Virus record (IMG/VR): IMGVR_UViG_3300032007_000010
Strand: one strand, 5' to 3'
DNA: 64,000 bases
DNA from: a virus
Taxonomy: Duplodnaviria > Caudoviricetes
The translations under genes were made by a program, and so were the position numbers. Numbering within the stretch: position 1 is the stretch's first letter; every line of letters starts with the position of its first letter. The notes under the pieces were generated by a model. It was not told where the DNA came from, searched no databases, and saw only the letters and a list, made by a program, of their open reading frames with translations. Below are positions 31,568-39,803 of the stretch, one piece after another.

Positions 31568-32315
31568 ATTGCACAACCTCAATGCACGGACGGAACCCAG
31601 ACGTAGCGCCCGGAGTGTGGCTGCTGAAGTAGCCGTCGTAAAGGATGCGCCAGACATAGCTGGAGCTGTACGGACAATCAGAGCACCAATAGTTATAGAT
31701 GTTTTTCACGGCATAGTCATCCTCGGACGAGCCCGTCCACTTGCGAATGCCAGACCAGTCAGAACTGGTCGGGTCGTTGCTATCGGTCCAGCTGGCGATG
31801 TCGGTCTTCTGGGCGATCCACACCTTTGCGGTGACGCTCTGGACTGTCTTCGAGTTGACGACCGACAGCGCGTTCGCCGACATCGCGTTCTGGAAGGTCG
31901 TGCACTTCGACGCGATCGTCGAACCGCTGTAGGTGTTTGACGAACCGAACTCTGTTGTCTCAGAGATAACCTTCTTCATCAACGTGTAGGTGGATCCGGA
32001 TACGTTGGCGATGATCCAGTCGATACCGTCGAAGCGCACATACGAACCCTTGGTAAGAGTACCCGAAATTCTATCTGAACCATATTCACCAGCTGGTTTC
32101 CCGGTAATTAGTTGACCGTACGCATCCCAGGCATATATACCATACTCAAGATCATCCACTGTTACATTTGCCCCAGAAAAATCGAAAGTCTTCTCATTGT
32201 ACATTTGTTCCCAGTACGCAGCCTGTTGCTGTGCTGCCGTCAACTGCGTTCGCAATGTTCCGATCTCGGCATTGAGCTCAGAGATCTTCGAAGCATTTGG
32301 CTTATTATAGATCAT
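31566..32315 (-). CDS. Tail-fibre/receptor-binding-like protein with C-terminal CLec-like (DUF6273-type) DGR variable region
   Basis: Start MIYNKP (GGAGG SD); coiled coil; fibre motif ANVTVDDLEYGIYAWDAYGQLITG; C-terminus YWCSDCPYSSSYVWRI..G.F..H..G.RPCI typical of DGR targets. Confidence 0.7.
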   Translation of the reverse strand: MIYNKPNASKISELNAEIGTLRTQLTAAQQQAAYWEQMYNEKTFDFSGANVTVDDLEYGIYAWDAYGQLITGKPAGEYGSDRISGTLTKGSYVRFDGIDWIIANVSGSTYTLMKKVISETTEFGSSNTYSGSTIASKCTTFQNAMSANALSVVNSKTVQSVTAKVWIAQKTDIASWTDSNDPTSSDWSGIRKWTGSSEDDYAVKNIYNYWCSDCPYSSSYVWRILYDGYFSSHTPGATSGFRPCIEVVQ

Positions 32316-38445: not shown

Positions 38446-38627
38446 CAGAGAAAAGACTGTGACACCCCTGAATCAGGGGTGTCATTTATTTTATGAAATG
38501 GAACCTACATATGTATAATGCTGCTTTCATTCATCCTATCCATGGGGATGCTCGGAGTGATTTTGGAATGTGCGATCCGATCTCACTCCGATATCCTTAT
38601 GCCGAAAGCAACATCCATTTTATCTAT

Positions 38628-39044
38628 GGGGGCGAAATGGTTTCGACGGGGGTTGATTCCGAGGATTGCATCGGCTGGCGGAATCCAGCATAAAAGTCCG
38701 ACTCATAAATTAAACGCGAACGATTACTACGTTCCTGCTCAGGCTGCTGCCTAATTAGGCGGTAAGCCCGAGACGAGCCCGAGTACTCTTTGGCGGTTCT
38801 CTTGAGAGCTCGGTAGTTAAGCAAAATCGCCCACCTCCATGGGATAGTTGTGTCACCTAACCATCGTTTTTGAGTAATCAAAACAGAGGTGCAAAGAAAG
38901 ACACGAACAGGTGGGACTGTCTAAAATTCCTATCTACCGGCAAAGTTGCCCGTGCTTAGCCGGTGATTAGGTGATCGGGATAACGATGTAGATATCCAGA
39001 GATAGATGCTTCGGACGCCGGTTCAATTCCGACCGCCTCCACCA
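38628..39044 (+). ncRNA. ssrA: tmRNA, tag peptide (A)ANDYYVPAQAAA*
   Basis: 5' GGGGGCGAAATGGTTTCGACGGG; 3' T-arm GGTTCAATTCC and CGCCTCCACCA with G3.U pair; resume codon GCG at 38716 after TAAAC, stop at 38752..38754. Confidence 0.95.
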
Positions 39045-39133
39045 TAAACTCCAATGCTCGGTAAGAACAGGCTGAGTATTGTTGTTCTTTAATTTGCCCA
39101 CCATGGTAGTAAATATCATGGTGGGCCCAATAT

Positions 39134-39209
39134 CCGGGTGTAGCGAAGTTGGTATCGCGCTTGCTTTGGGAGCATGAGGCCGTGGGTTCGAGTCCCACCA
39201 CTCGGACCA
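39134..39209 (+). tRNA. tRNA-Pro(UGG)
   Basis: Cloverleaf CCGGGTG/CACTCGG, anticodon loop TT-TGG-GA, TTCGA, CCA end. Confidence 0.93.
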
Positions 39210-39637
39210 GCTCGCTGCGCAGCGAGCAAAATCATTCTGACACATGGGCATGAATCGGAATCGCCGACGCGATAGGGAGTCCCGCCTGGCGACTCCGTCC
39301 CGTGGTCAGACAAAACGTTGATTCCCTACCACTAGATTGCGATCGCAGGATCGCCGAGGGTGGGGTGGAGTTAGTCCGTAGAATTCCGGGCATCGGCGTC
39401 TGGTAGCTATCCGCCCGATGCTGGCCGTACGACGTCTATCGGTTGGCAAGGTGCCAATCGGGCATATCATTGATGATACCTGTCAGATGACCGTCTCGAA
39501 TATGCTCCGAATCTAATGGATTGACGAAAGCGGGCCGAAAGGTGCTACCGCCGCGTGGTGGACAAAGCTGCATCACACGTTTTCTGGGCGCCGGGGCGGT
39601 GTAATACACGATCCGCCTCGGCAGCCGTCAAACATAT
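39210..39637 (+). ncRNA. Unassigned large structured RNA(s) inside the tRNA cluster
   Basis: ~430 nt without a plausible CDS, composed of multi-helix domains. Confidence 0.6.
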
Positions 39638-39722
39638 GCCGGTATGGCGGAATTGGTAGACGCGCCGGATTTAGGTTCCGGTGTCATATGACGTGTCGTT
39701 TCGAGTACGACTACCGGCACCA
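39638..39722 (+). tRNA. tRNA-Leu(UAG)
   Basis: GCCGGTA/TACCGGC acceptor, anticodon TT-TAG-GT, long variable arm, CCA end. Confidence 0.93.
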
Positions 39723-39727
39723 ATCAT

Positions 39728-39803
39728 GGGCAATTAGCTTAGCGGTTAAAGCAGCCGGCTCATAACCGGTCGACCCTCTGTTCGAATCAGAGATTGCCCA
39801 CCA
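39728..39803 (+). tRNA. tRNA with CAU anticodon, probably Ile2 (lysidine) rather than Met
   Basis: GGGCAAT/ATTGCCC acceptor; GCCGG-CTCATAA-CCGGT anticodon arm resembles bacterial tRNA-Ile2. Confidence 0.85.

What the first reader, a model, noticed from the sequence alone, without database searches (positions are those of the whole stretch)
39210..39637. ~430-nt highly structured unknown RNA between tRNA-Pro and tRNA-Leu
Seen: no credible CDS, but a dense series of helices. These include gctcgctg/cagcgagc; a junction closed by tctgac..gtcaga (39236-39310) holding tcgc/gcga and ggagtc/gactcc hairpins; gcgatc/gatcgc; gcatcgg/ccgatgc; ttggca/tgccaa; gggcatat/atatgctc; and a 3' domain closed by ttgacg..cgtcaa (39521-39631) with a GAAA tetraloop and gccggggcgg/ccgcctcggc. 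Several G-U pairs favour the + strand. Established: large ncRNAs such as GOLLD and ROOL and HDV-like ribozymes occur in phage tRNA clusters. I could not match RNase P, SRP or group I/II intron signatures, so this may be a new class released by tRNA processing.
Basis: partly seen in the sequence, partly recalled or inferred. Interest (0 to 1): 0.72.

Follow-up and report, generated by a model that had tools for sequence, protein, structure and literature searches.

The report
Uncatalogued folded RNA in phage tRNA operon
An uncultured giant phage carries, between two of its tRNA genes, a gene-sized stretch that most likely makes a folded non-coding RNA of unknown job; a diverged relative keeps its core, a sister lineage has deleted it, and it fits no catalogued RNA family.

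Summary
The + strand folds better than shuffles: z -3.2, against -1.8 for the - strand. No Rfam family matches, even at E<=10, and no ORF is conserved.

Three lineages of this AR9-like jumbo-phage clade were compared.
- Identical copies occur in two other samples.
- A sister lineage, 94-97% identical in the flanks and seen in three samples, lacks exactly 39231-39579.
- An outgroup (L011, neighbouring protein 71% identical) keeps a longer homologue of about 700 nt.

In L011 the peripheral helices are rewritten but still pair. Short junction motifs and a 107-nt 3' block (92.5% identical) are better kept than the neighbouring tRNAs (72-80%). That block crosses the indel edge, so the RNA is ancestral and the sister lineage deleted it. 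It is not a mobile insert or an intron.

The conserved unit is about 39312-39626: a multi-helix junction plus a 3' hairpin. The first hairpin (39210-27) is not part of it.

I read it as a real, clade-restricted, dispensable structured RNA, probably cut out of the tRNA precursor by tRNA processing. Its function is unknown. Covariation rests on only two distinct sequences, and expression could not be tested.

The scan had already noted this same stretch in an overlapping window, not on other DNA.

The parts
38628..39044 (+). tmRNA (tag ANDYYVPAQAAA), the first gene of the RNA gene block
   Evidence: ARAGORN; Rfam RF00023, 108 bits
39134..39209 (+). tRNA-Pro(UGG) with encoded CCA. Its 3' end abuts the candidate RNA and would set that RNA's 5' end.
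39210..39227 (+). 8-bp hairpin right after tRNA-Pro. It is present in the window lineage and the deletion lineage but absent in L011, so it is not part of the conserved RNA.
39231..39579 (+). The 349 nt missing from the sister lineage (L002, L003, L017). The junction there reads ...GAGCAAA|TTTTCTGGG..., with no target duplication, no terminal inverted repeat and no microhomology.
39236..39310 (+). Variable 5' domain: a branched hairpin closed by UCUGAC/GUCAGA. L011 keeps only patchy similarity and has about 310 nt of extra RNA here.
39312..39583 (+). Conserved core, a multi-helix junction. The closing helix is AAAACG/CGUUUU (39312-17/39578-83). Helix CCCUACC-A-CU/AG-GGUGGGG (39324-33/39357-65) encloses a variable hairpin (39339-54). 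Helix 39370-79/39516-25 encloses about 135 variable nt. A GAAA-capped hairpin lies at 39530-51 and a further hairpin at 39555-76. The kept junction motifs are GAUUCCCU..CACUAGA, CGAGGG..GGGUGGA and GAAAGCGGGCCGAAAGG.
39525..39631 (+). The best-kept block of the locus: 99 of 107 positions identical to L011 966-1072. It crosses the indel edge at 39579/80. All 8 substitutions lie in predicted loops or keep a pair.
39587..39626 (+). 3' hairpin of 13 bp with one bulged A, kept in all three lineages. Its 13-nt loop is inverted in the deletion lineage.
39638..39722 (+). tRNA-Leu(UAG). RNase P cleavage at its 5' end would set the 3' end of the candidate RNA. L011 has no tRNA-Leu; there tRNA-Met follows the RNA.
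39728..39803 (+). tRNA-Met(CAU), the last gene of the block

Best explanation
Window 39312-39626, with a variable 5' domain from about 39236, is a gene for a structured non-coding RNA. The RNA belongs to a tmRNA/tRNA gene block that one narrow clade of AR9-like jumbo phages acquired.

Shown:
- The + strand folds better than chance.
- A diverged relative keeps the same helix layout, with rewritten but still pairing helices.
- Junction motifs and a 107-nt 3' block are more conserved than the flanking tRNAs.
- The RNA matches no Rfam family and does not code for protein.
- It is ancestral to the clade, and one sister lineage has removed it by a 349-nt deletion, so the phage can do without it.

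Inferred:
- It is transcribed with tRNA-Pro and tRNA-Leu/Met as one precursor. 3' processing of tRNA-Pro and RNase P cleavage at the next tRNA free it, giving a stable species of about 430 nt (about 700 nt in L011).
- It then acts in trans as a folded accessory RNA, in the manner proposed for ROOL and GOLLD. Its strongly conserved 3' block would be the surface that binds a protein or RNA partner, probably in tRNA or translation-related host takeover or counter-defence. The partner and the chemistry are unknown.
For: - Fold z-scores are -3.18 (+ strand) against -1.79 (- strand), and -3.33 for L011.
- Rfam gives nothing at E<=10 on 386-nt, 1.6-kb and 1.3-kb stretches.
- The homologue in L011 lies between tRNA-Pro and tRNA-Met.
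- Identity of window to L011 by feature: 3' block 92.5%, tRNA-Pro 80%, tRNA-Met 72%, tmRNA 3' part 70%, neighbouring gene 76%, interior of the large helix 61%.
- 51 modelled pairs are 97% paired in both sequences, against 41-60% when partners are slid by 1-3 columns. Three pairs changed on both sides and nine on one side, all staying paired.
- Several of the one-sided changes give G-U pairs, which would be A-C mismatches on the - strand.
- All 8 substitutions in the 3' block fall in loops or keep a pair.
- Identical copies occur in two further samples (L013, L014).
- No ORF is conserved.
Against: - Only two distinct sequences carry the RNA, so the shuffle control has no power (68 of 500 shuffles reach the observed score).
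- The structure was derived from these same sequences, which inflates the slid-partner contrast.
- Three pairs of the large helix fit L011 only if one bulge is allowed.
- No convincing promoter was found, only an imperfect AR9-type motif before the tmRNA.
- No homologue turned up in 50,697 GenBank phages, IMG/VR, JGI metagenomes or GTDB genomes by the searches possible here.
- The sister lineage does without it.
- The high identity of the 3' block could also come from a DNA-level signal or a recent exchange.
Confidence: 0.6

Rival explanations
1. It is a cis-acting spacer. The stretch has no job of its own as a free RNA. Its hairpins only help the polycistronic tRNA precursor to fold, be cut or resist nucleases, or they separate transcription units.
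For: It sits exactly between tRNAs. The 3' hairpin (39587-39626) is kept even in the lineage that lost the rest, so that part at least may serve the downstream tRNA. The sister lineage works with a 79-nt spacer.
Against: A processing spacer does not need 320-700 nt, a multi-helix junction, or primary sequence kept better than the tRNAs themselves. The conserved motifs are junction strands, not only stems.
Confidence: 0.14
2. It is a neutral leftover: decayed tRNA genes or foreign DNA whose helices are chance. The conserved 3' block would come from a recent recombination between lineages or from a DNA-level signal such as a promoter or protein site.
For: Presence/absence differs between near-identical phages. 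Covariation is statistically untestable with two sequences. The insert alone has only z -2.07.
Against: There is no tRNA-like hit at E<=10 in the window or in L011. Conservation is mosaic: 17-nt islands are separated by rewritten helices that still pair, which recombination does not produce. Every substitution in the 3' block respects the fold. Both versions fold better than shuffles.
Confidence: 0.13
3. It is a mobile RNA element or its remnant, inserted into the tRNA spacer: an ORF-less group I or group II intron, or an IS200/IS605-type or MITE-like element.
For: The indel against the sister lineage is clean at 349 nt. It ends in a G that L011 also has and sits 3 nt after a hairpin. On the - strand, GUGUG lies at positions 2-6 of the indel.
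Against: - The outgroup L011 is homologous on both sides of the right edge (92.5% across 39525-39631), so the long form is ancestral and the short form is a deletion.
- The right edge cuts through the closing helix.
- The base before the left edge is A, not the U of a group I 5' splice site, and no guide sequence complementary to ...GAGCAAA lies in the first 30 nt.
- The + strand has no GUGYG...AY, and neither strand has a domain V-like hairpin near its 3' end.
- Rfam gives no intron hit.
- There are no inverted repeats, no target duplication, and only one copy in the 288-kb genome.
Confidence: 0.04
4. It encodes a small protein on either strand.
For: Short ORFs of 53-57 aa exist on the - strand.
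Against: None is kept in L011. The best candidate frame over the conserved block lacks a start and gains a stop there, and three of the five substitutions that fall in its aligned part change the residue. The gene caller behind look-up of encoding contigs called nothing here in any relative.
Confidence: 0.02

Closest known systems
ROOL (RF03087) and GOLLD (RF01998) RNAs
   Same: They are large, multi-junction non-coding RNAs of unknown function, often carried by phages and prophages and often next to tRNA genes. ROOL was first seen in cow rumen data (PMC5737381). An earlier unchecked scan note says this phage comes from the cattle rumen.
   Different: There is no sequence or structure match to either covariance model at E<=10. 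The core here is smaller, about 320 nt against 581 nt on average for ROOL. It is known from one phage clade only. Multimer or cage formation was not tested.
Stable RNAs C and D (species 1 and 2) in the tRNA gene cluster of phage T4
   Same: They are non-tRNA stable RNAs encoded inside a phage tRNA cluster, made from the same precursors by the tRNA-processing enzymes. They are dispensable and their function is still unknown.
   Different: By my recollection the T4 species are much smaller, roughly 120-140 nt. No sequence relation was tested.
The ~470-nt structured RNA after the DNA-ligase gene of this same phage (earlier scan finding e1-5709508)
   Same: It is a second uncatalogued large folded RNA in the same genome, so this phage group seems rich in such RNAs.
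   Different: According to that note it has its own promoter and is not tRNA-flanked. I found no shared motifs and no blastn or nhmmer similarity to it.
Group I introns
   Same: The local order of strands around 39324-39365 (helix strand, conserved ACUAGA, small hairpin, short purine junction, returning strand) recalls P7-P3'-P8-J8/7-P7'. The indel also ends in G.
   Different: There is no room for P1/P2 before it, no U at -1, no guide sequence, a junction of only 4 nt, no RF00028 hit, and the comparison shows a deletion rather than an insertion.

Membership tests
Any Rfam 15 family (incl. RNase P, SRP, 6S, tmRNA, ROOL, GOLLD, OLE, HEARO, HDV-like, riboswitches) | A match to the family covariance model | tested here: not met
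   Nothing reached the gathering score inside 39210-39637. At E<=10 with lax filters on 1.6 kb and on 386 nt, only chance-level hits appeared: D12-methyl (E 5.5) and SNORD50 (E 8.1). The L011 homologue gave the same result, with only SpF44_sRNA (E 5.4) and IRES_Bip (E 2) overlapping it.
Group I intron | U at the last exon position, paired to an internal guide sequence near the intron's 5' end (P1) | tested here: not met
   The base before the indel is A39230. No complement of ...GAGCAAA lies in 39231-39265.
Group I intron | Terminal G at the 3' end of the element | tested here: met
   G39579 is also G in L011. This feature alone is weak.
Group I intron | It is an insertion relative to the ancestral, intron-less site | tested here: not met
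   The outgroup L011 is homologous across the right edge, so the short form is a derived deletion.
Group II intron | 5' GUGYG, 3' AY, and a domain V hairpin with the AGC triad near the 3' end | tested here: not met
   The + strand starts AUCAU and ends CACG. On the - strand GUGUG is offset by 1 nt, and the 3' region is a 75-nt branched hairpin rather than a domain V. There is no RF00029 hit.
MITE / IS200-IS605-type non-autonomous element | Terminal inverted repeats or subterminal hairpins with a target-site rule, and several copies | tested here: not met
   There is no TIR and no duplication at the junction. The 287,660-bp genome holds a single copy. No copy was found elsewhere.
tRNA or decayed tRNA | A cloverleaf detectable by ARAGORN or RF00005 | tested here: not met
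   ARAGORN finds only the three flanking tRNAs. RF00005 gives no further hit at E<=10.
ROOL/GOLLD-like kind (large phage RNA by tRNAs; a kind, not a homologous family) | A large conserved multi-junction fold, non-coding, phage-borne, adjacent to tRNAs | tested here: met
   Conservation of the fold rests on two distinct sequences only.
ROOL/GOLLD-like kind | Assembly into RNA-only multimers | not testable with these tools
   This needs native gels, SEC-MALS or cryo-EM.

The most novel reading that the evidence does not exclude
The RNA is the founding member of a new class of large phage RNAs that act directly on the translation RNAs they are encoded with. For example, it could bind the acceptor or 3' end of tRNA or tmRNA (its two best-kept blocks carry GGUGGAG and UGGUGGA, complementary to the ...CUCCACCA 3' end of the phage tmRNA). 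Or it could be a ribozyme or an RNA-only assembly that shields or processes phage tRNAs during infection.
Probability: 0.08. Interest if true: 0.8.

Novelty: new member of a known kind. Interest (0 to 1): 0.5.

Why it matters
Large folded bacterial and phage RNAs without a known function are few, and ROOL and GOLLD, which sit next to tRNAs as this one does, are prominent open cases. This candidate adds a smaller, independent example with three useful properties. tRNA processing defines its ends. It has a natural knock-out: a sister lineage with a clean 349-nt deletion. It also has a natural variant with extra domains (L011). Together these make a comparison of function feasible once a host or an expression system is available. 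Because it sits in a jumbo phage that brings its own RNA polymerases, tmRNA and tRNAs, it may bear on how such phages take over or protect translation.

Tried and rejected
- Mobile insertion or intron. This was my first reading, after the 349-nt indel against L002/L003. I rejected it when L011 proved homologous across the right edge.
- Paralogues in the genome. blastn with word size 7 and nhmmer found only the locus itself. The conserved motifs do not recur, and the other ~470-nt RNA of this phage shares none of them.
- Homologues elsewhere, all without a real hit:
  - blastn 'distant' against 50,697 phage records with the window RNA and with the L011 RNA.
  - Exact-pattern scans of IMG/VR. 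One search gave four chance hits inside coding DNA, checked.
  - JGI metagenomes and GTDB genomes.
  - These scans need exact matches of 18-35 specified bases, so diverged homologues would be missed.
- Protein-anchored searches. The RNA polymerase piece has many relatives, but those at 54-60% identity lack the tmRNA/tRNA/RNA block. The downstream protein gave the only informative relative, L011. The upstream protein gave nothing new. The search for related loci with single proteins found nothing.
- RNA-RNA duplex search of the conserved blocks against the phage tRNAs and tmRNA was uninformative, because long sequences always give long duplexes.
- I did not attempt a covariance model of the whole core.

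Full report
**Setting**

The window is bases 211914-275913 of a 287,660-bp IMG/VR virus record. The genome encodes split multisubunit RNA polymerase pieces. The gene at 36582-37796 hits PHROG 'RNA polymerase beta subunit', and its nearest GenBank relatives are Bacillus phages AR9 and PBS1 at 31% amino-acid identity. The phage is therefore an uncultured AR9-like jumbo phage.

The finding lies in the genome's only RNA gene block:
- tmRNA, 38628-39044
- tRNA-Pro(UGG), 39134-39209
- the 428-nt stretch, 39210-39637
- tRNA-Leu(UAG), 39638-39722
- tRNA-Met(CAU), 39728-39803

**The observation**

- The + strand folds to -178 kcal/mol against -156.8 +/- 6.7 for dinucleotide shuffles (z -3.18, 1 of 100 as good).
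- The - strand gives z -1.79.
- There is no credible ORF. The longest is 57 aa, and none is kept in the homologue.
- Rfam 15 has no match at gathering scores, nor at E<=10 with relaxed filters on 1.6 kb and on 386 nt.

**Relatives**

No DNA-level relative exists in 50,697 GenBank phage records. Protein-anchored look-ups gave three lineages.

1. Contigs identical to the window, including the 428 nt, from two other samples: L013 (SRR9008756) and L014 (DRR452125).
2. A sister lineage in three samples: L002/L018 (ERZ27274621), L003/L019 (SRR7907945) and L017 (ERZ27274629).
   - The flanks are 97.5% (left) and 93.7% (right) identical to the window.
   - The Pro-Leu spacer is only 79 nt. Exactly 39231-39579 (349 nt) is missing.
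   - The junction reads ...GAGCAAA|TTTTCTGGG..., without duplication, inverted repeats or microhomology.
3. An outgroup, L011 (Logan DRR452117, 4.3-kb contig), whose downstream protein is 71% identical.
   - It has the order tmRNA, tRNA-Pro, 703 nt, tRNA-Met, and no tRNA-Leu.

Relatives at 42-60% protein identity have no RNA block at this position. The block was therefore acquired by the ancestor of these three lineages.

**Insertion or deletion**

The clean 349-nt indel first suggested a mobile element or an intron. L011 settles the question. Window 39525-39631 matches L011 966-1072 at 92.5% without a gap. This crosses the right edge at 39579/80, and the interior motifs are present as well.

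With L011 as outgroup, the long form is ancestral and the sister lineage carries a deletion. The deletion also cuts through a predicted helix (C39578 and G39579 pair with the 39312-17 strand). In the same lineage the 13-nt loop of the adjacent 3' hairpin is inverted. Both look like rearrangement damage rather than clean excision.

The intron and transposon hallmarks fail:
- A, not U, stands before the left edge.
- No guide sequence is present.
- There is no GUGYG...AY and no domain V.
- There are no inverted repeats.
- The genome holds a single copy.

**What is conserved**

Identity between the window and L011, by feature:

| Feature | Identity |
|---|---|
| 107-nt 3' block | 92.5% |
| tRNA-Pro | 80% |
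| downstream gene | 76% |
| tRNA-Met | 72% |
| tmRNA 3' part | 70% |
| interior of the large helix | 61% (about what unrelated sequence gives under this scoring) |

Conservation is mosaic. The islands GAUUCCCU..CACUAGA, CGAGGG..GGGUGGA and the block starting GAAAGCGGGCCGAAAGG are separated by sequence that is rewritten but still pairs.

Helix changes from the window to L011:
- CCCUACC/GGUGGGG becomes CCCUGUC/GGCAGGG: one double change and two single changes, all still paired.
- GUUAGUCC../..GGAUUGAC becomes GUCUA(U)GG/CCUAGGC: two double changes and three single changes, with one bulge needed.
- The closing helix AAAACG/CGUUUU becomes GGAACG/UGUUUU: three changes, all giving G-U.

G-U pairs would be A-C mismatches on the - strand, so these changes also fix the strand as +. 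All eight substitutions in the 3' block lie in predicted loops or keep a pair.

On the 51 modelled pairs, 97% of cells pair, against 41-60% when partners are slid by 1-3 columns.

**Limits of this evidence**

Only two distinct sequences carry the RNA. The shuffle control is therefore powerless (68 of 500 shuffles reach the observed score). The structure was derived from these same sequences, which favours it in the slid-partner control. I treat the fold as well indicated but not proven.

**Anatomy**

The conserved unit runs from about 39312 to 39626.
- A closing helix, 39312-17/39578-83.
- A helix at 39324-33/39357-65, with a bulged A and an internal loop (kept ACUAGA and CGAG) that holds a variable hairpin.
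- A long helix at 39370-79/39516-25, holding about 135 variable nt.
- Two invariant hairpins at 39530-51 (GAAA loop) and 39555-76. An alternative pairing, CCGCC/GGUGG, cannot be excluded because nothing varies there.
- Outside the junction, a 13-bp hairpin at 39587-39626.

The 5' domain (39236-39310) is variable, and L011 has about 310 extra nt there. The first hairpin (39210-27) is lineage-specific. It is less well supported, because L011 changes only one of its two strands and one change gives an A-A mismatch.

**How it most likely works**

Shown:
- The RNA is a non-coding, folded, selectively constrained sequence.
- It is ancestral to the clade.
- It is dispensable in one natural lineage.
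- It directly abuts tRNAs on both sides in both versions.

Inferred:
- It is co-transcribed with the tRNAs and released by the tRNA-processing enzymes, in the way stable RNAs are made from the T4 tRNA cluster (own knowledge).
- It then acts in trans as an accessory RNA.

A primary sequence kept better than the tRNAs argues that the 3' block is a binding or active surface. Presence/absence between near-identical phages is consistent with an accessory role. I cannot name the partner.

The complementarity of GGUGGAG and UGGUGGA to the tmRNA 3' end (...CUCCACCA) is only a lead. These segments are also predicted to pair within the RNA.

The promoter is unknown. Only an imperfect AR9-type motif stands 7 nt before the tmRNA: AACA-N6-TT, where the consensus is AACA-N6-TA (PMC9209446). 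A terminator-like hairpin follows the tmRNA, so the tRNA-Pro/RNA/tRNA-Leu/tRNA-Met unit may be transcribed separately.

**Comparison with known RNAs**

The closest kind is ROOL and GOLLD: large, ornate RNAs, phage- or prophage-borne, often beside tRNAs, of unknown function. ROOL was first found in rumen data (PMC5737381). The present RNA is not a member of either family, because neither covariance model gives a hit. It is best described as a new, so far clade-restricted family of that kind. Membership of RNase P, SRP, group I/II introns, HDV-like ribozymes and tRNA was tested and not met.

**Earlier scan notes**

The same stretch was noted in an overlapping window as a 270-310-nt multibranched RNA at 39312-39626 (e1-5709500). 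The core I derive from the comparison agrees with that. Notes on two other uncatalogued RNAs of this genome (e1-5709498, e1-5709508) told me that relatives exist, that the source is the cattle rumen, and that the genome is rich in such RNAs. I found no similarity between those RNAs and this one.

**Verdict**

This is probably a real, previously uncatalogued structured RNA gene. Its release by tRNA processing is inferred, its function is unknown, and it is restricted to one narrow lineage. Interest is moderate. It would rise sharply if a stable transcript, significant covariation in more homologues, or an activity on tRNA or tmRNA were shown.

Noticed in passing
window 39590-39623; L002:7296-7328: The 13-nt loop of the 3' hairpin is the exact reverse complement in the deletion lineage (ATCGTGTATTACA against TGTAATACACGAT). 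The window and the outgroup L011 share one orientation. This is a hairpin-loop inversion right next to the 349-nt deletion, and the two may come from one rearrangement.
   Followed up: partly
L011:390-700 and L011:1168-1723: The outgroup's RNA has about 310 extra nt at its 5' side: a 135-nt domain closed by an 11-bp helix, and a GAAA-capped hairpin. A further 556 nt between tRNA-Met and the next gene are unassigned, against 193 nt in the window. L011 has no tRNA-Leu.
   Followed up: partly
window 39052-39128: Between the tmRNA and tRNA-Pro lie a terminator-like hairpin with a T-run (39052-39081) and a second 10-bp hairpin (GCCCACCATG...CATGGTGGGC). L011 keeps both, which suggests the tmRNA and the tRNA/RNA unit are separate transcripts.
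   Followed up: no
window 38610-38621: AACA-N6-TT lies 7 nt before the tmRNA 5' end and resembles the AR9 non-virion RNA polymerase late-promoter consensus AACA-N6-TA (PMC9209446). It is imperfect at +1, and AACA-N6-TA occurs 14 times on the + strand of the window.
   Followed up: partly
window 38628-39803 against L004-L009, L015, L016: The whole tmRNA/tRNA/RNA block is absent at this position in relatives at 42-60% protein identity. The 54% group has nrdD-nrdG (anaerobic ribonucleotide reductase and its activase) after the same upstream genes.
   Followed up: partly
genome about 31,600-32,100 (outside the window): I read the second large structured RNA candidate, after the DNA-ligase gene (earlier scan note). 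It shares no motif with the RNA studied here.
   Followed up: partly
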